A stretch of 64,000 bases of DNA from contig NZ_NSKH01000024.1 in assembly GCF_003144095.1 (NCBI RefSeq), positions 201,198 to 265,197 of the forward strand. Reading direction: 5' to 3'. Position 1 is the first letter of the stretch. The number at the start of each line of letters is the position of its first letter. A program made the position numbers and the translations under genes. The DNA is from Streptomyces sp. ICBB 8177 (GTDB lineage: Bacteria > Actinomycetota > Actinomycetes > Streptomycetales > Streptomycetaceae). Below are positions 3,402-34,689 of this stretch, piece by piece. Under the pieces are notes generated by a model. The model made no database searches, had not been told where the DNA came from, and saw only the letters and a program-made list of their open reading frames with translations.

Positions 3402-4301
3402 TCAAGGGGTGGCGGGGTGCGAGGCGGCGGCGTCCGCCTCCGCCTCGTCGCCCGCCTCCGCCCCGTCGTCCGCGCCCGCCTCGTCGGTCGGATCGCCGTC
3501 CGGCTTCGGCTCCGTGTCGTCCTCGTCCGGGATCAGGCCCAGCGCCCGGTCCCGGACGACCTCCGCCTCACGGCGGGCCAGCCGGACCCAGATGAAGACC
3601 ACGAAGCCCGCGAAGACGAACCACTCGCCGGTGTAGCCGAGGTTCTGGAACGCCTGCATGTCGAGCCCGGTGTTGGGCGGCGCGGCGGGCGGCACCGCCT
3701 TCATCGGCGCCGCGGCGTCGACCAGCGTGATCCACCCGTTGTAGACCGGGTACGGCACCAGGTTGACCAGCGAGGCGGCGCTGATCATGCCGACCTGTCC
3801 GGCGGGCAGCCCGCCGTCGGAGTCCACCCCGTCGTCGCCCGGTGCCTCCGAGGCCTGGAGGGTGCCGGTGACGGTGACCTGCCCCGCGGGGGGCGCCGGA
3901 ACGTGTCCGGGGTGGTCGGCGTCGCCGGGCAGCCAGCCGCGCACCACGGGCAGCGTGCCGCCGTCGGTGCGCAGCAGCCCGAGCACGTAGAAGCCGCTCC
4001 GGTTGTCGACGTAGCGGTCCGGCACGAGGTACTGGTGGGCGAGGTCGTAGTGCCCGGTCACGGTGACGTTCCGCCCCGAGGTGGCCTGGTCGACCGGGGT
4101 CTTCACGGTCGGCAGGGCCCGGTTCAGCGGGATGGCGGGGGCGGTGCCGGGGCGCGGTGCGTGCTCGGCGGTGCGGTGCTGGGCGACGCGGGCGTCGAAC
4201 CGGCTCAGCTGCCAGGTCCCCATGAAGACGCAGAAGGGGATGGCGAGGAGCGAGACAAGGGTGATCCCGAGCCAGCGGGGGGTCAGCAGGAACCGGTACA
4301 C
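3402..4301 (-). CDS. SURF1 family protein (cytochrome oxidase assembly)
   Basis: N-terminal TM helix, LSRFDARV...VTGHYD...YLVP pattern typical of SURF1, and a C-terminal TM helix. Convergent with the peptidase gene. Confidence 0.8.
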   Translation of the reverse strand: MYRFLLTPRWLGITLVSLLAIPFCVFMGTWQLSRFDARVAQHRTAEHAPRPGTAPAIPLNRALPTVKTPVDQATSGRNVTVTGHYDLAHQYLVPDRYVDNRSGFYVLGLLRTDGGTLPVVRGWLPGDADHPGHVPAPPAGQVTVTGTLQASEAPGDDGVDSDGGLPAGQVGMISAASLVNLVPYPVYNGWITLVDAAAPMKAVPPAAPPNTGLDMQAFQNLGYTGEWFVFAGFVVFIWVRLARREAEVVRDRALGLIPDEDDTEPKPDGDPTDEAGADDGAEAGDEAEADAAASHPATP

Positions 4302-4356
4302 GTCTCAACGGTAAGGGGGCACGGCAGGCCGCCCGGACCCGCCCCCCGGCTCCCGG

Positions 4357-5553
4357 CTACGGGACGGGCAGCGCCTCGGTGCGGTAGACGGTCCCGGCGC
4401 AGGCCGAGGGCAGGGTGACGGCGGGGGCGGGGCCGCCCTGGGTGGTCACGTCGGTCAGCGCGACGCCCTCGCCGGACGGTGTGCTGGTGGGCGCCGCACC
4501 CCCGCCGGCGTCCCCCGTGCCGTCGCCGGGGGCCGCGCCGGTGCCGTCGCCCGAGCCGCCGGACGCGCCGCCCGATCCGTCCGCGCCGCCCGAGGCGGGG
4601 GGCGGGTCGGTGGCGCAGCCCGAGGTGCCGCCGCCGGGGGCGGGGACGAAGGCGAAGCGGACCTGGTAGGCCTGGCCGGGCGGCACCACCACGGAGTCCG
4701 GCTCGGTCGCCGGGTCTGGCAGCGCGGTCGCCGGATCGCCCTCGGTGTGCTGGACGACCTGGATCCTGGAGGCGTCGGCCGCGCCCTGGGCGGTGACCGA
4801 CAGGGTGCCGCCGTCGCTCACCGTGCAGCTGGTGTGCGAGACGTTGACGACGCGGAACGAGCCGTAGACGCGGCCCTGCTGGTCGGGGGCGGCGGCCTGC
4901 GCGGTGCCGTCGCCGAGCTGGGTGCGCGAGCAGGCGGGCGAGGTGACGAAGGTGGCCGTGGGCAGCGCCGCGCCGGACGGGCTGTCGGAGGCGCCGGGCG
5001 ACGGTGAGCCGCCGGCGGAGCCCGAGGGGGACGCGGCCGGCCCGGCGGTGACGGTCGCGGGAACGCCGGGCAGGCCGCCGTCGGCGTCCGGGGTGCCGCC
5101 ACCGTCCACACCGGGGCTGCTGCCGTCGCCCTGGGCACCGGAGGCGCGCGCGACGCCCGCGTTGTCCATGCCGCCGCCGGAGGTGACGTGCAGCAGCGCG
5201 GGCACGGCGGCGCCGACCAGCAGCACGCTCGCCGCGGCGCCCACCACGGCCTGCCGCCGTCTCGCCCGCCGCGCGGGCACGCCACGGCGCAGCCGCTCCA
5301 GCGCCTCGGGGCACGGGTCGACGTCGCGCACGGCGTCGCGCATCAGGCGGCGCAGCTCGTCCTCCCCGAAGGGCGCGCCGAGGGCGTCACCGCAGGGCGA
5401 CTCGTCGCGCGGGGCTCGGGCGCCGTGGCCGGAGCCGTCGGGGCCGCTGCCCTCGTAGCCGGAGTCGTCGTGGGCGCGGTCGCCGTGCGCGGCTCTGTCG
5501 CGCGGGGTGTCGTCTTCCGCCATGCCTTCCTGGCCGAAGGGGTCTGTGGTCAT
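4357..5553 (-). CDS. Putative anti-sigma factor / membrane protein with a low-complexity extracellular region
   Basis: Start overlaps the sigma-factor stop (ATGA coupling). Acidic N-terminus, one TM helix (AVVGAAASVLLVGAAVPALL), and a Ser/Gly/Pro-rich region followed by a beta-rich domain. Confidence 0.55.
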   Translation of the reverse strand: MTTDPFGQEGMAEDDTPRDRAAHGDRAHDDSGYEGSGPDGSGHGARAPRDESPCGDALGAPFGEDELRRLMRDAVRDVDPCPEALERLRRGVPARRARRRQAVVGAAASVLLVGAAVPALLHVTSGGGMDNAGVARASGAQGDGSSPGVDGGGTPDADGGLPGVPATVTAGPAASPSGSAGGSPSPGASDSPSGAALPTATFVTSPACSRTQLGDGTAQAAAPDQQGRVYGSFRVVNVSHTSCTVSDGGTLSVTAQGAADASRIQVVQHTEGDPATALPDPATEPDSVVVPPGQAYQVRFAFVPAPGGGTSGCATDPPPASGGADGSGGASGGSGDGTGAAPGDGTGDAGGGAAPTSTPSGEGVALTDVTTQGGPAPAVTLPSACAGTVYRTEALPVP

Positions 5554-27344: not shown

Positions 27345-27885
27345 GTGCCGCCGTCAGCTGCTCCGGATGTGGTGGAGCATCAGCAGGGCGGCGACGGCGT
27401 TGGCCGACCGGATCTCACCGCGGGTCACCAGGTCCGGCACGTCCTTGAGCGGCACCCACTCCCGGCGCTCCGACTCGAAGGCGTCCTCCGGGTCGCCGAC
27501 GTATTCGGCATCCTGGGCCCAGAAGACCTAGTGGCGGGCGTCGGTCAGCCCATGCTGCGGCTCGACCATCATCAACTCCCGCAACGGCCCCGGTCGCCAG
27601 CCCGTCTCCTCCAGCATCTCCCGCGCGGCGGCGTCCGCCGGCTCCTCCCCGTCCTCGACCACGCCGGCGGCCAGTTCGTAGCTCCACGTGCCGGTGATGA
27701 AGCGATGCCGCCACAGCAGGAGGACCTCGTCGGCGTCGTTGACGACGGTCGCCAGAGCCACCGGCCGCTGCCGGATGACGTAGTGGTCCAGGTGGCGGCC
27801 GTCAGGCAGTTCCACGTCAGCGAGGTTCACCCGAAGCCACGGGTTCTCGTACACGGTGTGCTCGCCGAGATTCGTCCACCGCACC
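27345..27885 (-). pseudogene. NUDIX hydrolase interrupted by an in-frame TAG (27528-27530)
   Basis: NUDIX box GVVEDGEEPADAAAREMLEETG upstream of the stop. The reading frame continues with homologous-looking sequence (VFWAQDAEYVGDP...VPLKDVPDLVTRGEIRSANAVAALLML) after the TAG. Confidence 0.65.
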
Positions 27886-27894
27886 GCGCGACCC

Positions 27895-28260
27895 TTAACG
27901 CGCCGACTTCTCGATTGCCTCGAAGATGTCCGCGTCGGTCTCCCTCTGCCACAGCGGGAGTTCTGGCCAGTCCGCCACGTAGCCCGGCTTCGGGTTTTCG
28001 AAGTGCTTGAACATCTGAGCGGTCCAGCAGGTGGCGACGAAGCGGCTCTTCTGCTCGCGGGACAGCCGGTCCGTCCTGGCGTCACTGACCTCGACGAACC
28101 GACGCACCTGCTCGTACACCGCTTGCGCCGCATCGCGTTCCCACTGCGGGGTGTCGTCCCACGGGGTCACGTATCCGGCCTTCGGCTCACCGGGAAAGTG
28201 CCGCCGCACGCCCTCGATCCAGGCCTCCCGGAACAGTCGTGCACCCTCGGTCTGCGACAT
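27895..28260 (-). CDS. Hypothetical protein
   Basis: High GC3. ATG with a GAGGTGG RBS (MSQTEGARLFREAWIEGV...). Directly upstream of, and co-oriented with, the NUDIX gene. Confidence 0.5.
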   Translation of the reverse strand: MSQTEGARLFREAWIEGVRRHFPGEPKAGYVTPWDDTPQWERDAAQAVYEQVRRFVEVSDARTDRLSREQKSRFVATCWTAQMFKHFENPKPGYVADWPELPLWQRETDADIFEAIEKSAR

Positions 28261-28285: not shown

Positions 28286-29526
28286 TCAGCGAGGCGATCT
28301 CCGCCTCCAACTCGGCCAATCGCCGGTCCCGTTTGTGACGGGGCCGAACTCGGCGCACAGCTCTCGGAGTCTACGAGTCAGGTAGCCGGAAGACGAGGCG
28401 CGAGCGAGTTCGACGGCCTCCCGGCCATACGACACCGCTTGTTCCAGGTCGCACCGCTTCACGCCGACGGCGCGAGGTCTGTCAACACAGCACCCCTTCT
28501 GCGATATGACTGCCCAGCGGCCAGGGCAGTGTTCCCCAGAGCCAAACTGAGCGTCGTCTCCGCACTTTCCAAACGCTCTAGTCGCACGTACCTGGCACCG
28601 CGCTCCTCCGCGAGACGAGAGCCATCGAACCTGAGCCATCCGCCGTTGCTAACGACCGGAGTGAGGTCCCGGACCTTCTCCGCACGGTCCAACGCGTCTT
28701 CGCAGGCTCGAAGTTCGCCCATACCGGCGTACGCCTCCGCTTGGACCGACGCGACCCAATGACGGGTCGGGAGCGCGCTGTCCCCATGCTCAGCCAGCCT
28801 CTCAGCCACACCAAGCATCTGTGACGCCTGGCCATAGCGGTGCTCTGCCATGTCAACATAGGCATGCCGTACCAAGGCGCATGCCCACAAGTCATAGGCC
28901 CCGGCCTCCCTGCTGAGCGATGCTGCGAGGACGTAGGAGGCCGCGGCGTCGTCATAGCGGTTCGCGTCGAAGGCCACCTCACCGGCCAACTGGAGGAGGT
29001 CTGCCGCAGCGGTCATGAGCGGCGGAATGTTCCCACGGCCAGCGGTCATCGCCTCGTTGACCGCTACGAGTTGGTCGCGGGCGAACCGTGCGTACGGATT
29101 GCTTCGACCTCGCCAGTTGGTAGACCTGCCAGAGATGACTGTTCATCCGGCTGAATTCAGTGGGCGTCGCCCGTCGAACACCCGTAGCGAGGGCTTCGGT
29201 TTCTTCGGCGGGAAGAGCGGCAAGTGCTCCGCTGAGGGCGAGCGAGCGAAGAAACGCGGCGAATCATCTCGTCATGCTCTCCGGCATTCGGGCGAACTTC
29301 GGCTTCGTGCGTGGTTTCTGCCCCGTCTGCTGTTCGGGACGTCGACAGGAGTGCATCGAGTTCTTGGAGGCTGACGTCCAACGCGGCCGCCAAACGCCGT
29401 CGCTGCGGTGGTTGAGGGGCGATCCTCCCGGCCTCCCAGCGCCCGACCGTCGTACGGTCCACGCCGAGTAACTCGGCCAGCTTCTCCTGACTGTAGCCCA
29501 GCACCCTGCGCCTCTTCGCCAATCCC
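28286..29526 (-). pseudogene. XRE-family HTH regulator with C-terminal TPR-like domain, split across three frames (at least two frameshifts)
   Basis: HTH piece 29526-29157 (LGYSQEKLAELLGVDRTTVGRWEAG), middle TPR-like piece 29049-28459, and C-terminal piece 28639-28286, all on the minus strand but in different frames. Confidence 0.55.
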
Positions 29527-30006
29527 ATGGCCGAACCTTCCCACAACGCGAGGCTTTCGCAGACCGTGCGCGGGTCTGCGTCAAGTCTGCCGCACTGATG
29601 CCGTGGTTACCCACGTCTTCGCGCGCTTTCCTGATGCAGCGGAGGATGAGCACGGTGAGCCCGGGAGGAGTTGCCATGGCCACAGGAGATCCCGACCCAG
29701 AAGGCGAGTTGAACAGTTGTTCCCGAAGTCGAGAACGGCTCAGCGAACAGCGAGTCCTCATGACGTACAGAGTCTCTCGTGATTCCGGACGTACTTGGGA
29801 GCAGTCACCCAGGTGCTTGGGGACGACCACCTGCCGATCCTGGACAACCCACGTCGCTATCCACCCTGCGCGTGCCCACGTTGTTCAGGCGTGGCCGACG
29901 GCCCCGGTCGCGCAACGACAGTCTGGCCAGTTGCGGACCTGTAGGAGCGAGCCATCGTCTCCAGCGGGTCCAACCACACCGAAGGATCGAAACCAAAGGA
30001 GAAGCA

Positions 30007-30158
30007 TGCGAATCGCAGCGATCAGGCACATGGACACCAGCGGAGCGTTCGCGCAAGGCGACGAGGAGAAGGACAAGCTGCCGGGGCAGCCGTGGACGCC
30101 GCAGCCGCCCTCGCCGGACGGTGGTAGTCCTCAGGGTGACGGGAAGCACCGCAAGTGA
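30007..30158 (+). CDS. Small precursor-like peptide (50 aa) with a conserved Asp-Gly-rich C-terminus; candidate substrate of the downstream PIMT homolog
   Basis: ATG preceded by a perfect AAGGAG RBS at 5-nt spacing. Product is MRIAAIRHMDTSGAFAQGDEEKDKLPGQPWTPQPPSPDGGSPQGDGKHRK. Its stop TGA overlaps the GTG start of the next gene. A paralog is present at 34166. Confidence 0.7.
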
Positions 30159-31303
30159 CCGACACGGACACCGGCCGCCCCAGCGACGAGTTGGGGCGGT
30201 ACCTCCTTGATCGCGGTGACATGACATCGGACTGGGCCGTGCCTTTCGCCGCCGTGCCGCGTGCGGCGTTCCTGCCCGACCGGATGTGGGTCTGGGACAT
30301 GGAGACACAGGGGACTGAACTCCACGACAAGCAAGATGACTTGGCCGCTTGGACCCGTGCCGCCTACCGTGACGCGCCGATCGTCACCCAGTGGGACGAC
30401 GGCCGGCACGCCGGGTCCACGGCCGGGAGGCTCGCCACCAGCTCGGCGTCGATGCCCTCCGTGGTCCTGAGCATGCTGCGGGACCTCGACGTCGTGGACG
30501 GTGTGCGGGTACTGGAGATCGGCACCGGCACGGGCTGGAACGCGGGGCTCCTGTGTGCCCGCCGGGGCGAGGCGAACGTCGTCACCGTCGAGGTCGACGC
30601 CCAGGTGGCCGCCACCGCACGCACCGCGCTGGGCAGAGCCGGGCTGCGGCCCGCCGTCGTCTGCGGTGACGGCGCGGCCGGATACGGTGTCCGCGCACCG
30701 TACGACCGCGTGATCGCCACCGTGGGCGTGCGTAGCGTGCCGTACGCGTGGATCGAGCAGACCCGCCCCGGCGGAATCGTGCTCACCCCCTGGGGCACGC
30801 ACTACAGCAACCAGGAGGCCCTGGCCCGCCTCACGGTGGACGAGGACGGCACGGCGTCGGGTCCGTTCCTGCGGCCGGTCGAGTTCATGACCCTGCGCGG
30901 CCAGCGTCTCGACTGGGGGCGGTTCTCCGGCCACGTTCCGGAGGACTACGCGTCGATTCCTGCCGTGCGGAGAAGCTGCGTCACCTTGGCCGAACTGACC
31001 GGCACCGCCCAGCAGTTCGTGTGCGGGCTGCGGATGCACCGGTGCGCCCAGGTCGTCAACGGGCGCCGCGTCTGGCTCTTCGACATGGACTCGACGTCCT
31101 GGGTTCTGGCGGAGTTCCCGGAGGAAGACGGCCCACCGCTGGTGAGGCAGTTGGGGCCGCGACCCTTGTGGGACGAGTTGCTATGCGTCCTCGAATGGTG
31201 GAGACGGGGAGGCTCGCCGGGCCCCCGCCACTTCGGGCTGACGGTCACTCCCAACGGTCAGTCGGCATGGCTTCTCGACCGCGCCAACGCCTGGGTCGTG
31301 TGA
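30155..31303 (+). CDS. Protein-L-isoaspartate(D-aspartate) O-methyltransferase (PIMT/PCMT) family protein with an approximately 150-aa C-terminal extension
   Basis: VLEIGTGTGWNAGLL SAM motif I and overall PCMT-like N-terminal layout. GTGA overlap with the upstream peptide gene. The architecture resembles PIMT homologs found in RiPP clusters. Confidence 0.8.
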   Translation: MTDTDTGRPSDELGRYLLDRGDMTSDWAVPFAAVPRAAFLPDRMWVWDMETQGTELHDKQDDLAAWTRAAYRDAPIVTQWDDGRHAGSTAGRLATSSASMPSVVLSMLRDLDVVDGVRVLEIGTGTGWNAGLLCARRGEANVVTVEVDAQVAATARTALGRAGLRPAVVCGDGAAGYGVRAPYDRVIATVGVRSVPYAWIEQTRPGGIVLTPWGTHYSNQEALARLTVDEDGTASGPFLRPVEFMTLRGQRLDWGRFSGHVPEDYASIPAVRRSCVTLAELTGTAQQFVCGLRMHRCAQVVNGRRVWLFDMDSTSWVLAEFPEEDGPPLVRQLGPRPLWDELLCVLEWWRRGGSPGPRHFGLTVTPNGQSAWLLDRANAWVV

Positions 31304-31402: not shown

Positions 31403-32599
31403 TCAGCGGATGTTCACCGGGCCGTCGTCGTCCGAAGTGCCGTCCTGCGGGCGGGTCTTGGCCGTGCCCAGGTAGCGCTGGAGCTGTGCGCCGGGGGCCG
31501 GAGAGGAAGACGCGCCGTCCGCGCCGCTGAGGTTGCGGCGGACCGAGTCCAGGATCGTCAGGCCCTGGCCGACCAGGCCCGCCGCGATCTCGCCCAGGCC
31601 GTCCGCGCCGTTGAGGACGTTGACGTTCGCGCCGGCCAGGCCCGCCGACGCCTCCTTGACGATCTGCGGCAGCTGGTCGATCAGCATGCGGTCGAGCGCG
31701 ACGCGGTCGTGCGAGGCGGCGGCCTCTGCCTGGATCTTCATCCGTTCGGCCTCGGCCAGCGCCAGCACCCGGATGCGCTCGGCCTCCGCCTGCGCGGGCT
31801 TGACCACCTCGGCGACCAGCTGCTGCTGCCGCAACTGGGCCGCGCGCTCTGCCAGTTCGGTCTGCGCCGCCAGCACCTCCTGCTGGGCGTGCGCCTGCGC
31901 CAGCGGTCCGGCCTGCGCGGCCTGCGCCTGGACGCGGTCCACCTCGGCGTTGTACTGCGCCTGCACGACCGCGGTCTGCCGGGCGTACTCGGCCTGGTTG
32001 CGGGCCGCCTCCTGCTGCGCCTCCACCGACTGCTGGGTGGCCTGCGCCTGCGCGATCTGCGCCTGCCGCTGGATGGCCGCCTTGTGCGGGGCGGACATCG
32101 CGTCGATGTAACCGGTGTCCCCGTCGTCGATCGACTGGATCTGCAACGAGTCCACGATCAGGCCGATCTTGGCCATCTCCGCCTTGGACGTCTCCAGCAC
32201 CTCGGTGGCGAGCTTCTGCCGTTCGGTGACGATCTCCTCGACCGTCATCGAGCCGATGATGGCCCGCAGGTGGCCCGCGAAGATGCGGCCGGTCAGGATC
32301 GACATCTGGTCCTGGTCGGACAGGAAGCGCTGACCGGCGTTGACGATGCTCTCGTTGTCGTTGCCGACCTTGAACGCGATCACGGCCTTCACCGTCAGCG
32401 CGATGCCCTGCTTGGTCACGCACTTCTCTGCGACCTCCGCCTCGCACATCGCGAGGGTGAGGAAGCGGACCTTGCGGAACACGGGGAGGACGAACTTGCC
32501 GTGCCCCGTCACCACCCGGAACGGAGCACCCCCCTGGCCCCGCCTGCCCCCCGAGATCAGCATCGCCTCGTCAGGGGCGGGAACGCGGTAACCGAACAT
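31403..32599 (-). CDS. Flotillin-like SPFH/band-7 domain protein
   Basis: SPFH domain (EAEVAEKCVTKQGIALTVKAVIAFKV...) followed by a long Ala/Gln-rich coiled coil. Confidence 0.85.
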   Translation of the reverse strand: MFGYRVPAPDEAMLISGGRRGQGGAPFRVVTGHGKFVLPVFRKVRFLTLAMCEAEVAEKCVTKQGIALTVKAVIAFKVGNDNESIVNAGQRFLSDQDQMSILTGRIFAGHLRAIIGSMTVEEIVTERQKLATEVLETSKAEMAKIGLIVDSLQIQSIDDGDTGYIDAMSAPHKAAIQRQAQIAQAQATQQSVEAQQEAARNQAEYARQTAVVQAQYNAEVDRVQAQAAQAGPLAQAHAQQEVLAAQTELAERAAQLRQQQLVAEVVKPAQAEAERIRVLALAEAERMKIQAEAAASHDRVALDRMLIDQLPQIVKEASAGLAGANVNVLNGADGLGEIAAGLVGQGLTILDSVRRNLSGADGASSSPAPGAQLQRYLGTAKTRPQDGTSDDDGPVNIR

Positions 32600-32613
32600 C
32601 CTTCGTCGTCTCC

Positions 32614-32864
32614 TCAACCAGCGTCGCCGGCGTCACCGGCCAACGCGTCCAACGGATCGGCCCATTCGATGACGTCGACCTGGCGGGTGCCCCGGGACTC
32701 GACCACCAGGACGTTCGCTCCCTTGGGCAGCGGCTCCGCGGACCAGGCGAGGAACGCCTCCGATCCGCCCCGGACCCGCACCAGCACCTCGCCGGGCCCG
32801 TCGGCCCCGCGAGTGCCGATGAGCAGCACCCCCGCGCAACCGACCACAGCCTCGTCCGACGCCA
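32614..32864 (-). CDS. NfeD-like OB-fold protein (flotillin-associated)
   Basis: GEVLVRVRGGSEAFLAWSAEPLPKGANVLVVESRGTRQVDV OB-fold pattern. Immediately upstream of the flotillin gene. Confidence 0.6.
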
Positions 32865-32990
32865 TTGACGGCCATCCCCCATCGTTCCTGGTCCTGGTTC
32901 CGACCTTAGCGCTCCGCGAGATCGACGCCCATGGTGGTGAGGTCACGAGTCGGGGGGCGCCCACCGCCAGCGGCCCGAGCCCGGACGGCC

Positions 32991-33719
32991 TCAGTGGCGC
33001 TCGTGCCCCAGCCCGATCTCGTACGCGATCTCCAGCCGCACGTCCGGCACCGTGATGTCGGCCGTCTCGACCGGGCGGCCGTCCGCCGCGTAGTACGTGC
33101 GCTCGATGTGCAGCAGCAGGTCACCGGGGGCGATGCCGAGCAGCGCCGCCTCCGCGGTGGTGGCCCGTCCGGGACGCGGCACCTCCACGGCCCTGGTGAT
33201 CTCGATGCCGATGCTGCGCATCCGCTCGACCACGCCCTTGCCCTTCATCGGGCCCAGCTCCGGCAGCACGATCGGGGTGCGGCCGGTGATCGCCATCGGC
33301 TCCCAGCTCTCCGCCAGGTGGACCGGCTGACGGTCGGTGAGGAACTCGTACCGCGTCCGTACGCACATGTCCCCCTCGGCGATGTCCAGCCTGCGGGCGA
33401 TGCGGGCCGGGGCCGGGGTGTGCGCCTCGCTGTGGAACTCGCGTGCGGCGCCGCCGCCCGGGGTGGCCTCACCACGCGAACGCACCATCCGGTGCCGCTC
33501 GCGCGGCTCGCGCACGTACGTGCCGGAGCCCGCCCGGCCCTCCAGCAGGCCCTCGACGATGAGCAGGTCGACCGCGCGCTGCGTCACGTTCCGCCCGACG
33601 CCGTACTCCTCGGCGAGGCGGGCGCGTGACGGCAGGCGTTCGCCGGTGGCCCACTCCCCGCCCCTGACCCGGGCGCGCAGGGCCTCGGCGACCTCGAGGT
33701 AGGGGGCCTCGCGTGCCAT
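32991..33719 (-). CDS. GntR/HutC-family transcriptional regulator (UTRA effector domain)
   Basis: N-terminal GntR wHTH (LPSRARLAEEYGVGRNVTQRAVDLLIVEGLLEGRAGSGTYV) plus a C-terminal UTRA-like domain. Confidence 0.85.
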   Translation of the reverse strand: MAREAPYLEVAEALRARVRGGEWATGERLPSRARLAEEYGVGRNVTQRAVDLLIVEGLLEGRAGSGTYVREPRERHRMVRSRGEATPGGGAAREFHSEAHTPAPARIARRLDIAEGDMCVRTRYEFLTDRQPVHLAESWEPMAITGRTPIVLPELGPMKGKGVVERMRSIGIEITRAVEVPRPGRATTAEAALLGIAPGDLLLHIERTYYAADGRPVETADITVPDVRLEIAYEIGLGHERH

Positions 33720-33810
33720 CCGCCGTCTCCCGACTGCCGTGTGCCGTCTACCGGTTGGTGCGCTCTTGGGTGCCTTTGCTCCGTTGACAAAGCTACTGCA
33801 TCAGGTACAA

Positions 33811-33824
33811 GCTGCTTAAGCAGC
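33811..33824. promoter_or_regulatory. Perfect 14-bp palindrome GCTGCTTAAGCAGC in the GntR divergent promoter region (candidate operator)
   Basis: Self-complementary sequence in an AT-richer stretch between the GntR start (33719) and the downstream operon. A TTGACA hexamer lies at 33784-33789. Confidence 0.5.
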
Positions 33825-33866
33825 ATTACCATGTGTGATCACCGGCCGCCTCACCTGGGGACATTC

Positions 33867-34166
33867 GTGCGTTCACCCGAAGCCCGCGCCCGCGAGGTCG
33901 CCGACCGGCTGGCGGCCGCGACCGGCACCGAGGCCCGCACCCTCGCGACCCCGGAGGCCATCCGGGTCGAGGTCTACGTCCCCGACGAGATCCCGGAGCC
34001 GCTGCACACCGCCCTCGTCGACGCCCTGCGCCGCGCCGACCGCTACGGGCACGCGCGCACGGCGGACGCGGCGGTGGCGTGGGCGGAGATCACCCGTACC
34101 GGCCGGGGCGACGTGCCCGGCGAAGAGCACGACCACCCACCCCAGCCCCAGGAGGGAACGCCATGA
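33867..34166 (+). CDS. Hypothetical protein (about 99 aa), translationally coupled to peptide copy 2
   Basis: Very high GC3. GTG with a GGGGA RBS; an alternative ATG lies at 33831. Stop TGA overlaps the ATG of the peptide gene (ATGA). Confidence 0.5.
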   Translation: MRSPEARAREVADRLAAATGTEARTLATPEAIRVEVYVPDEIPEPLHTALVDALRRADRYGHARTADAAVAWAEITRTGRGDVPGEEHDHPPQPQEGTP

Positions 34167-34297
34167 GGATCGAGATCCTGACGCACGCAGGCGGCGACGG
34201 CGGCGACAGCCTCCCCGGCCAGCCCTGGCAGCCCCCGCAGGAGCCGCCGAGCCCGGACGGCGGCAGCCCCGAGGGGGACGGGAAGCACCGCAGGTGA
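34166..34297 (+). CDS. Small precursor-like peptide, copy 2 (43 aa), paralog of the 30007 gene
   Basis: GGAGG RBS. Product is MRIEILTHAGGDGGDSLPGQPWQPPQEPPSPDGGSPEGDGKHRR. The C-terminal 27 aa are nearly identical to copy 1. Stop TGA overlaps a GTG start (GTGA), as in copy 1. Confidence 0.65.
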   Translation, partial: RIEILTHAGGDGGDSLPGQPWQPPQEPPSPDGGSPEGDGKHRR

Positions 34298-34689
34298 CCG
34301 TGCGCGACACGGCGCGAGCGCGGCCCACCCGGCAGGAGCTGGGCCGCGCCCTGCGCGCCTCGGGTGCGCTGGGTCAGGCCTGGGTGCCCGCTTTCGAAGC
34401 GGTCGACCGGGCCGCGTTCCTGCCCGACGTGATGTGGCCGTACGACATGGCGACCGGCGCCAGTGCCACGGTGGACCGGCGCACCGATCCGGACGCCTGG
34501 TTCGCCTGCGCCGACCGCGATGTACCGATCACCACGCAGTGGGACGACGGCGCGCACGAAGGACCGGCGCCGGGGAGGGTCGCCACCTCGTCGTCGTCCA
34601 TGCCGTCGGTCGTCTTCCGGATGCTGGACGACCTCGCGCTGGTCCTCGCCGTCGGAACGCCTTCACAAGAAGTTCGCGGGGAACACTGA
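34294..34689 (+). pseudogene. Truncated paralog of the PIMT-family methyltransferase (N-terminal about 130 aa only)
   Basis: ...VPAFEAVDRAAFLPDVMWPYDM...ITTQWDDGAHEGPAPGRVATSSSSMPSVVFRMLDDL aligns to residues of about 25-115 of the 30155 protein, then ends in a stop before the SAM-binding motif. A lower-GC junction follows (ATCCACACATATGTTTGTCTGCATGATTTCGG). Confidence 0.65.

What the first reader, a model, noticed from the sequence alone, without database searches (positions are those of the whole stretch)
33784..33830. Perfect 14-bp palindrome and a TTGACA hexamer in the GntR divergent promoter
GCTGCTTAAGCAGC (33811-33824) is exactly self-complementary and sits in a locally AT-richer stretch 90 bp upstream of the GntR start on the other strand. 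This is the classic arrangement for a GntR/HutC autoregulatory operator that also controls the divergent operon, which here is the hypothetical ORF plus peptide copy 2. A TTGACA -35-like hexamer is 22 bp upstream of it.
Basis: seen in the sequence. Interest (0 to 1): 0.5.

Follow-up and report, generated by a model that had tools for sequence, protein, structure and literature searches.

The report
GntR repressor operator in divergent promoter
The 14-bp palindrome is very probably a real binding site (one of two) for the neighbouring GntR/HutC-type regulator. It sits on the promoter of a small divergent operon that carries a peptide natural-product precursor, which makes it an ordinary kind of bacterial switch with unusually clear comparative evidence.

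Summary
In detail: GCTGCTTAAGCAGC lies at 33811-33824 and TTGACA at 33784-33789, in a 45% GC patch of a 72.6% GC window. The palindrome alone is weak evidence, because 11 such palindromes occur in the window and about 15 are expected by chance. Comparison with 80 loci encoding orthologues of the adjacent HutC-type GntR settles the matter. About 75 of them keep a palindrome at the same position, and its two arms change together. A second, imperfect site (33792-33805) lies between the palindrome and the hexamer and changes in step with the first. The base pair at +/-3 tracks the regulator residue that aligns with the guanine-contacting Arg48 of NagR: Arg goes with C:G, Asp with G:C, and Gln/Pro/Ala with A:T. 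Asp appears to have arisen twice independently. The hexamer is conserved as TTGACA or TTGGCA. An nAnnCT -10-like hexamer follows it 17-18 bp downstream and overlaps the palindrome. The best reading is a repressor with two operators that occlude the promoter of hyp-pep2-(truncated methyltransferase), and probably the regulator's own promoter as well. This is a new member of a known kind, with a non-canonical HutC operator consensus. No binding experiment or transcription start data exist.

The parts
33811..33824 (.). Operator site 1: perfect 14-bp palindrome GCTGCTTAAGCAGC (family consensus nCT-R-N-T-NN-A-N-Y-AGn)
   Evidence: Positionally conserved in about 75 of 80 orthologous loci. Symmetric covariation. 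Covaries with the GntR recognition-helix residue.
33792..33805 (.). Operator site 2: imperfect palindrome GCTACTGCATCAGG (half-sites CTACT and CTGAT), centre 19 bp from the centre of site 1
   Evidence: It is the only other intergenic match to CTRCTNNAGYAG in the window. Its -35-proximal half tracks the site 1 half-site across loci (115/150 matches against 89.9 +/- 3.1 in shuffles, 0/5000).
33784..33789 (+). -35-like hexamer TTGACA of the divergent (hyp) promoter
   Evidence: Conserved as TTGACA in 37 of 75 loci and TTGGCA in 32 of 75. It does not work as a -35 in the GntR direction, where a matching -10 is found in only 0-2 of 75 loci.
33808..33813 (+). Candidate -10 hexamer CAAGCT of the hyp promoter, 18 bp after the -35, overlapping the left arm of site 1
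   Evidence: At this fixed position 73 of 75 loci have nAnnCT (AAAGCT, GAAGCT, GATTCT, GAATCT, TAATCT and others), with a 17-18 bp spacer. This is inferred; the strict consensus scan found no promoter.
33790..33795 (-). Candidate -10 hexamer TAGCTT of the GntR promoter (reads AAGCTA on the + strand), overlapping site 2
   Evidence: TAnnTT is present at this position in all aligned rows. There is no recognisable -35. Inferred.
32991..33719 (-). GntR/HutC-family regulator gene (242 aa); recognition helix begins V-G-R-N-V-T-Q-R
   Evidence: PF00392 1.3e-15 and PF07702 UTRA 4.9e-17. The closest solved structure is 3EET, E 6.9e-47.
33867..34166 (+). Divergent gene hyp (99 aa, conserved ...RIRVE.DLP...ADRYGH...VWAE motif), preceded by the Shine-Dalgarno (SD) sequence GGGGA at 33857-33861
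   Evidence: 100% identical to the 99-aa NCBI protein P0001 of Streptomyces sp. ICBB 8177. Found next to the GntR gene in about 45 loci. No family hit. AF2 model pLDDT 84, with no significant fold match.
34163..34297 (+). Peptide copy 2 (44 aa, Gly/Pro/Asp-rich; resembles a type I pamtide / imiditide precursor); its start overlaps the hyp stop (ATGA)
   Evidence: Type I pamtide precursors are described in PMC10787088.
34294..34689 (+). Truncated PIMT/PAMT-like methyltransferase fragment (131 aa, N-terminal third only); its start overlaps the peptide stop (GTGA)
   Evidence: Matches TIGR04188 positions 3-105 of 363. A full-length counterpart sits at the same place in L001.
33835..33842 (.). GTGATCAC, part of a conserved element in the hyp 5' leader (ACG-N3-CGTGATC ... 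CTCAC just before the SD)
   Evidence: Function unknown.

Best explanation
The palindrome is operator site 1 of the adjacent HutC-type GntR regulator. Site 2 (33792-33805) is a second, imperfect copy 19 bp away. Each site is a dimer site with half-site 5'-CT(A/G)CT, separated by two central bases.

The sites lie on a sigma-70/HrdB-type promoter that fires to the right. The -35 is TTGACA (33784-89). Site 2 fills the spacer. The candidate -10, CAAGCT (33808-13), overlaps site 1, and site 1 also covers the expected transcription start. Regulator bound to both sites would block RNA polymerase. It would thereby repress hyp, peptide copy 2 and the methyltransferase remnant, which are translationally coupled.

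Site 2 also overlaps a conserved TAnnTT hexamer that reads towards the GntR gene. The same occupancy would therefore probably autoregulate gntR, and with it the NfeD-like and SPFH genes downstream. An unknown small-molecule ligand of the UTRA domain would release the repressor.

Shown: the sequences, their conservation, the symmetric and cross-site covariation, and the residue-base covariation. Inferred: binding, the direction of regulation (repression), the -10 elements and start sites, operon extent, and the existence of an effector.
For: (1) The protein is GntR HTH plus UTRA.
(2) In 80 orthologous loci (51-87% identity), a palindrome sits 62-94 bp upstream of the GntR start in about 75. The flanks and spacing are also conserved.
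(3) The arms change together: pair 5-10 is C:G in 20 distinct sequences, A:T in 12 and G:C in 3. The covariation score is 0.384 against 0.162 +/- 0.023 in shuffles (0/500), and no more than 0.123 in slid controls.
(4) Site 2's -35-proximal half carries the same variable bases as site 1 in each lineage (115/150 against 89.9 +/- 3.1, 0/5000). A hairpin model does not predict this.
(5) The residue that aligns with NagR Arg48, which contacts a guanine (PMC4333415), predicts the +/-3 base pair: Arg with C:G in 18 of 19, Asp with G:C in 3 of 3, Gln/Pro/Ala with A:T in 13 of 14. These pairings match the Arg-G and Asp-C preferences reported for the family (PMC4494728).
(6) In a tree built from the effector domain alone, Asp occurs in two separate lineages (L073/L075 and L036), each with G:C.
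(7) The -35 is conserved, and an nAnnCT hexamer lies 17-18 bp downstream in 73 of 75 loci.
(8) Loci that lack hyp still keep both sites. The binder is therefore encoded by the conserved gene, gntR.
(9) Within the window the motif occurs in intergenic DNA only at these two sites.
Against: There is no experimental binding, footprint or transcription start for this or any orthologous locus. The site does not fit the canonical HutC consensus NyGTMTAKACNy (GT-N4-AC). The candidate -10 CAAGCT matches the TATAAT consensus only at A2 and T6, and the consensus scan reports no promoter. The sequences are related, so the shuffle statistics overstate independence; the residue-base covariation rests on roughly 5-7 independent changes. 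The NJ tree has no support values. In the lineage without hyp, the rightward promoter-like elements are conserved without an obvious gene to drive. Part of that conservation may therefore have another cause.
Confidence: 0.8

Rival explanations
1. A chance palindrome in an AT-richer intergenic patch, with no function.
For: Perfect 14-bp palindromes are as common in the window as chance predicts (11 observed, 14.7 +/- 3.3 expected).
Against: The position is conserved, with compensatory arm changes, in about 75 of 80 orthologous loci down to 51% protein identity. The probability in this 148-bp region alone is about 0.01.
Confidence: 0.02
2. An RNA or DNA hairpin (leader structure, processing site or terminator), with arm covariation that preserves base pairing.
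For: The 26-nt segment folds into a 5-bp stem with a 4-nt loop (-7.9 kcal/mol, z = -2.5). Symmetric covariation is what a stem would also show.
Against: The stem is short, and in longer contexts the fold is no better than shuffles (z = +0.6 and +1.1). There is no T-run or terminator and no Rfam match. Pair 4-11 shows both A.C (6) and G.T (5), so either strand would carry mismatches. A hairpin does not explain the direct covariation of site 2 with site 1, nor the covariation with a protein residue. The inferred start site lies inside the palindrome, so it would not be fully transcribed.
Confidence: 0.04
3. A real protein operator, but bound by a different regulator (for example the divergent hyp protein or a global factor) rather than the adjacent GntR.
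For: No binding data exist. hyp is genetically linked to the site in about half of the loci.
Against: The sites persist where hyp is absent. The variable base pair follows the GntR recognition-helix residue, with the expected Arg-G and Asp-C chemistry, twice independently for Asp. hyp has no recognisable DNA-binding fold.
Confidence: 0.07
4. The GntR protein binds the sites but acts as an activator, or regulates only its own gene and not the divergent operon.
For: In the lineage without hyp the sites can only serve gntR. Promoter assignments are inferred.
Against: The sites overlap the spacer, the -10 and the start of the rightward promoter, a geometry typical of repression. Known HutC members such as NagR and DasR are repressors (PMC4333415, PMC4918961). 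In hyp-containing loci the full -35/-10/leader/SD architecture is conserved together with the sites.
Confidence: 0.07

Closest known systems
NagR (YvoA) of Bacillus subtilis and DasR of Streptomyces coelicolor: GntR/HutC repressors binding palindromic dre sites
   Same: Same domain architecture (winged HTH plus UTRA; NagR E 1e-13). Dimer binding to a two-fold symmetric site. An arginine at the N-terminus of the recognition helix reads a guanine (PMC4333415), and the aligned residue here covaries with a G:C pair. The operators overlap promoters and act by repression.
   Different: The operator consensus here is CT(R)NT-N2-AN(Y)AG, not GT-N4-AC (TGGTCTAGACCA-like). The specificity-linked G is 3 bp from the dyad and on the opposite strand relative to the NagR G-4. 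The second arginine of helix 2 (NagR Arg38) is not at the aligned position (S-R-A-R instead of S-E-R-E). The effector is unknown, and the regulated genes are unrelated to amino-sugar use.
HutC/FadR-subfamily divergons with cooperative double sites (Suvorova, Korostelev and Gelfand 2015, PMC4494728)
   Same: The TF gene is divergent from its target operon. Two sites at constant spacing lie in the centre of the intergenic region, which that study interprets as joint control of both operons. The Arg-G and Asp-C residue-base correlations are also shared.
   Different: This orthologous group and its motif are not among the examples named in the text read. The motif departs from the family consensus those authors required for inclusion.
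PDB 3EET, putative GntR-family transcriptional regulator (structural-genomics entry)
   Same: It is the closest solved relative (E 6.9e-47 over residues 4-234), and the conserved C-terminal core aligns.
   Different: No function or operator is described for it. It carries Asp at the specificity position, where the window protein has Arg (alignment).
Type I pamtide / imiditide gene clusters (precursor plus PIMT-like methyltransferase)
   Same: The operon under the operator carries a 44-aa Gly/Pro/Asp-rich peptide followed by a PIMT-like methyltransferase gene, as described for two-gene pamtide/imiditide clusters. The arrangement is intact in L001, L002, L003 and L010.
   Different: In the text searches made here, those papers contain no mention of GntR or of a regulator. 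In this window the methyltransferase behind peptide copy 2 is truncated. Most GntR-hyp cassettes carry no such genes.

Membership tests
GntR family, HutC subfamily (the regulator) | N-terminal winged helix-turn-helix of GntR type | tested here: met
   PF00392, E 1.3e-15, residues 5-68.
GntR family, HutC subfamily (the regulator) | C-terminal UTRA (chorismate-lyase-fold) effector domain | tested here: met
   PF07702, E 4.9e-17, residues 93-221. Partial matches to the PhnF and HutC NCBIfam models fall below their cut-offs.
HutC-subfamily operator | Palindrome matching NyGTMTAKACNy (GT and AC separated by 4 nt) | tested here: not met
   The site is GCTGCTTAAGCAGC and the family consensus is nCT(R)NT-NN-AN(Y)AGn. 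The canonical consensus is quoted from PMC4494728. Exceptions to it are known in the subfamily.
HutC-subfamily operator | Two-fold symmetric dimer site whose bases covary with DNA-contacting residues of the HTH | tested here: met
   Symmetric covariation. The residue aligned to NagR Arg48 tracks base pair +/-3.
HutC-subfamily operator | Direct binding by the regulator and release by an effector | not testable with these tools
   Needs EMSA or footprinting and ligand screening.
TF-containing divergon with cooperative double sites | Two sites at constant spacing in the intergenic region between the TF gene and a divergent operon | tested here: met
   Sites 1 and 2 have a fixed 19-bp centre-to-centre spacing in nearly all loci, as in the category defined in PMC4494728.
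Sigma-70/HrdB-type promoter | -35 TTGACA-like hexamer, 16-18 bp spacer, -10 TAnnnT-like hexamer | tested here: inconclusive
   The -35 is perfect and conserved. The -10 is CAAGCT, matching only A2 and T6, although nAnnCT is conserved in 73 of 75 loci. The consensus scan found no site. There are no transcription start data.
Intrinsic terminator / known RNA family | GC-rich stem followed by a T-run, or a match to an Rfam model | tested here: not met
   No terminator-like site. No Rfam match at E <= 1.
Type I pamtide / imiditide cluster (cargo of the regulated operon) | Short Gly/Pro/Asp-rich precursor directly upstream of a full-length PIMT-like methyltransferase | tested here: inconclusive
   Met for peptide copy 1 with the 382-aa methyltransferase (TIGR04188-like, 3.1e-88, below its cut-off; PF01135 1.2e-25). 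For copy 2, under this operator, only a 131-aa methyltransferase fragment remains. The pair is intact in L001. The modification itself was not tested.

The most novel reading that the evidence does not exclude
The GntR-hyp pair is a portable two-gene regulatory cassette of Streptomycetaceae. In the lineage of this window it has captured a type I pamtide/imiditide cluster (hyp-precursor-methyltransferase). That would make it the first candidate pathway-specific switch for that RiPP class. The cassette's natural series of helix variants (Arg, Gln, Pro, Ala, Asp) with matching operators would also give a ready-made recognition code for a non-canonical HutC binding mode (CT-N8-AG instead of GT-N4-AC).
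Probability: 0.4. Interest if true: 0.5.

Novelty: new member of a known kind. Interest (0 to 1): 0.35.

Why it matters
The result gives a specific, testable operator and promoter model for an uncharacterised but widespread group of Streptomyces HutC regulators. Relatives were found in at least 80 species, several on large linear plasmids. It links that regulator to a pamtide/imiditide-type peptide operon for which, in the two founding papers searched here, no regulator is mentioned. The matched changes in one helix residue and one operator base pair are a clean natural example of regulator-operator co-evolution, and could guide specificity engineering. It does not change how GntR regulators are understood to work.

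Tried and rejected
(1) The palindrome's own statistics: not significant at window scale.
(2) The strict promoter/terminator scan found nothing.
(3) The exact palindrome with up to 3 mismatches, and the generalised motif, were searched across the window. Apart from the two intergenic sites, the matches are GC-rich 12- to 14-mers. The one match checked (11008) lies inside a long ORF. None lies upstream of peptide copy 1.
(4) TTG(T/C)CA read as a -35 for the GntR gene: rejected, because no -10 follows in 0-2 of 75 loci.
(5) Function of hyp: no Pfam or NCBIfam hit and only 10 word-index homologues, all hypothetical. A confident AF2 model (pLDDT 84) gave no significant PDB fold match (best E 6.6e-3, TM below 0.5). 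The afdb50 library was unavailable.
(6) The idea that the pair is a plasmid or AICE kor/pra-type module: plasmid hits are annotated only as 'GntR family transcriptional regulator' or 'hypothetical protein', with no transfer genes adjacent. Not supported.
(7) Known RNA families: none.
(8) The BldD-box idea for the GTGATCAC element: the half-site order does not fit the box as I recall it. This was recalled from memory and not tested further.
(9) My first attempt at the site 2 register was off by one base and gave no signal. It was corrected.

Full report
OBSERVATION. The sequence is as described. GCTGCTTAAGCAGC occupies 33811-33824 and equals its own reverse complement. TTGACA occupies 33784-33789. 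The surrounding 60 bp are 45% GC in a window of 72.6% GC. The palindrome lies in the 147-bp gap between a minus-strand ORF (32991-33719) and a plus-strand ORF. I place the start of the plus-strand ORF at GTG 33867. This gives 99 aa, preceded by GGGGA at 33857-33861, and matches the length of the 100% identical NCBI protein from Streptomyces sp. ICBB 8177.

CHANCE. A perfect 14-bp palindrome is not remarkable in this window. Eleven centres qualify, against 14.7 +/- 3.3 in first-order Markov simulations. Within this 148-bp region the chance of at least one is about 1%. That is suggestive but weak, given the number of intergenic regions a reader scans. The sequence alone therefore does not decide the matter.

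THE NEIGHBOURS. The minus-strand protein has a GntR winged HTH (PF00392) and a UTRA domain (PF07702), so it belongs to the HutC subfamily. It falls below the cut-offs of all named NCBIfam equivalogs. Its closest solved relative is the uncharacterised 3EET (E 6.9e-47), followed by NagR/YvoA (1e-13). The divergent 99-aa protein, here called hyp, has no family match. Its stop overlaps the start of a 44-aa Gly/Pro/Asp-rich peptide (ATGA at 34163-34166). That peptide's stop overlaps the start of a 131-aa fragment of a PIMT-like methyltransferase (GTGA at 34294-34297). A second peptide (30006-30158) with a full-length 382-aa methyltransferase lies 3.6 kb to the left. These peptides fit the published description of type I pamtide / imiditide precursors.

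COMPARATIVE EVIDENCE. A scan of one genome per species returned 80 loci encoding relatives of the regulator at 51-87% identity. They come from Streptomyces, Streptantibioticus and Kitasatospora, plus one contig labelled Saccharothrix. In about 75 of them a palindrome sits 62-94 bp upstream of the regulator's start, inside a conserved architecture. Read towards the regulator gene, the order is:
- a leader element, GTGA-N6-GATCAC;
- CGT-nnn;
- site 1;
- TT-nnn;
- site 2, (C)CTG(A/G)TGCAGTAGC;
- (T)TTG(T/C)CAA.

Site 1 changes between lineages, and it does so symmetrically:
- GCTGCTTAAGCAGC (window, L001);
- GCTACTTAAGTAGG;
- TCTACTCCAGTAGC;
- GCTGAGTACTCAGC;
- TCTAATGCATTAGA;
- GCTAGTTAACTAGA.

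On 37 distinct sequences, 79.9% of cells pair. There are 43 double-sided changes against 22.9 +/- 3.1 in shuffles. The covariation score is 0.384 against 0.162 +/- 0.023 (0/500), and slid controls reach at most 0.123. The outer CT...AG is nearly invariant.

PROTEIN OPERATOR OR HAIRPIN. Three results favour a protein site.
- First, site 2 (33792-33805 in the window) carries, in its half next to the -35, the same variable bases as site 1 in each lineage. Examples are CTACT with CTACT, CTAAT with CTAAT, and CTAGT with CTAGT. There are 115 matches of 150 against 89.9 +/- 3.1 when loci are shuffled (0/5000). This is a direct, not an inverted, relationship, and no stem would require it.
- Second, the start of the regulator's recognition helix varies (V-G-x-N/S), and x predicts base pair 5:10 of site 1. 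Arg goes with C:G in 18 of 19 distinct combinations, Asp with G:C in 3 of 3, and Gln, Pro or Ala with A:T in 13 of 14. By alignment, x corresponds to NagR Arg48, FadR Arg45 and AraR Arg41. This residue makes bidentate contacts with a guanine in the crystal structures (PMC4333415). Arg-G and Asp-C are the preferred pairs found by family-wide correlation analysis (PMC4494728).
- Third, the predicted RNA stem is only 5 bp (-7.9 kcal/mol). Larger contexts fold no better than shuffles. No terminator and no Rfam family is found.

In a neighbour-joining tree built from residues 76 onward only, so that the DNA-binding domain does not influence it, Asp appears in two separate places: L073/L075, and L036 nested among Arg and Pro proteins. 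Both have G:C. The tree has no support values. The number of independent events is small, roughly five to seven, so the shuffle statistics overstate the evidence. The direction and chemistry of the changes are nonetheless coherent.

PROMOTER GEOMETRY (INFERRED). In the direction of hyp, the hexamer is TTGACA in 37 of 75 loci and TTGGCA in 32 of 75. A hexamer of the form nAnnCT follows 17-18 bp downstream in 73 of 75 (window: CAAGCT, 33808-33813). This hexamer shares its last bases with the left arm of site 1, and site 2 fills the spacer. Occupancy of both sites would therefore cover the spacer, the -10 and the expected start near 33820. Towards the regulator gene, a TAnnTT hexamer (window: TAGCTT, read on the minus strand at 33790-33795) is present in every aligned row and overlaps site 2. 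It is a plausible -10 of a -35-less promoter; from my own knowledge, many Streptomyces promoters lack a clear -35. The strict consensus scan finds no promoter on either strand, and no transcription start data are available.

WHAT IS REGULATED. hyp homologues with the motif ...RIRVE.DLP...ADRYGH...VWAE lie divergent to the regulator in about 45 loci. In L001, L002, L003 and L010, hyp is followed by a full-length PIMT-like methyltransferase, and in L001 also by a 91% identical copy of the peptide. The ancestral unit in this lineage is therefore regulator <-> hyp-precursor-methyltransferase. In the window the methyltransferase is cut after about 115 residues, and the intervening DNA seen in L001 is missing. 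A large group of relatives has site 1 TCTACTCCAG(C/T)AGC and the hexamer TTGGCA. This group has no hyp gene, and in an annotated plasmid example the upstream gene is co-directional. It nevertheless keeps both sites. This argues that the binder is the regulator itself and that autoregulation is a conserved function. Within the window, the generalised motif CTRCTNNAGYAG matches intergenic DNA only at the two sites.

COMPARISON WITH KNOWN SYSTEMS. The system works like NagR/DasR-type HutC repressors and like the 'cooperative double-site divergons' described for the family. As a family member, the protein passes both domain tests. The operator fails the canonical GT-N4-AC consensus. The conserved dinucleotides are CT/AG at +/-5 and +/-6, and the specificity-linked G is at +/-3 on the opposite strand compared with the NagR G-4. 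Exceptions to the consensus are already known in the subfamily. I therefore treat this as a new member with a variant motif, not a new kind.

hyp. A ten-sequence alignment gave a confident AlphaFold model (pLDDT 84; alpha-beta-beta-alpha-beta-beta). It has no significant match among solved structures (best E 6.6e-3, TM below 0.5). Its role is unknown.

VERDICT. This is an ordinary class of element, and the mechanism rests on inference until binding and start sites are measured. Interest is 0.35. Confidence that the palindrome is an operator of the adjacent regulator is 0.8.

Noticed in passing
window 34294-34689, compared with L001 4248-5390: The methyltransferase behind peptide copy 2 is only a 131-aa N-terminal fragment. 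The closest relative (Streptantibioticus parmotrematis) has a full-length 382-aa gene there and several kb more DNA before the S8-like protease gene. The window therefore appears to carry a deletion that leaves peptide copy 2 without its own enzyme.
   Followed up: partly
window 30006-31303 and 34163-34297: There are two Gly/Pro/Asp-rich peptides of 50 and 44 aa. The first is followed by a complete PIMT-like methyltransferase and fits type I pamtide / imiditide clusters. The two founding papers, as searched here, mention no regulator or hyp-like gene.
   Followed up: partly
window 33825-33861 (hyp 5' leader): The conserved leader motifs are ACG-N3-CGTGATC(AC), followed by CTCAC directly before the Shine-Dalgarno sequence. 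GTGA-N8-TCAC is present in 13 of 30 hyp-containing loci (not in the window itself). This may be a third protein site or a small RNA stem; it remains unexplained.
   Followed up: partly
L013-L020, L027, L032, L034, L038-L042 and others; L082 (annotated plasmid): A large clade of regulator orthologues has lost the divergent hyp gene but keeps both operator sites and a TTGGCA-17-AAAGCT promoter-like arrangement that points at no obvious gene. Several have a strong inverted repeat (for example GAGGTGGTC...GACCACCTC) just downstream.
   Followed up: partly
window 33867-34166; P0001-P0010: hyp defines a small uncharacterised protein family (about 80-100 aa, invariant D-R-Y-G-H and W-A-E). The predicted two-layer alpha/beta fold is confident, with no Pfam, NCBIfam or significant PDB match.
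   Followed up: yes
L081 (NZ_CP108116.1 plasmid) 4180-4805: In one plasmid locus hyp is followed in the same direction by a 'DUF6415 family natural product biosynthesis protein'. Twelve plasmid records, all from Streptomyces among those listed, carry regulator orthologues at 60-66% identity. This suggests that the cassette moves with accessory DNA.
   Followed up: no
window 31403-32964, minus strand: A 116-aa ORF and an SPFH/flotillin-like gene follow the regulator gene after a 26-bp gap. They are also present in L001 (91% and 98% identity) but not in other loci. They may be co-transcribed with gntR and so fall under the same operators.
   Followed up: no
window 27528-28133 and 28459-29546, minus strand: A Nudix-like ORF and an XRE-type HTH ORF followed by a helical-repeat-like ORF lie just left of the first peptide gene. 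They were identified by eye from the translations only.
   Followed up: no
PDB 3EET (alignment): The closest solved structure has Asp at the specificity position (G-V-S-D-T). On the rule found here, its operator would have G:C at +/-3.
   Followed up: no
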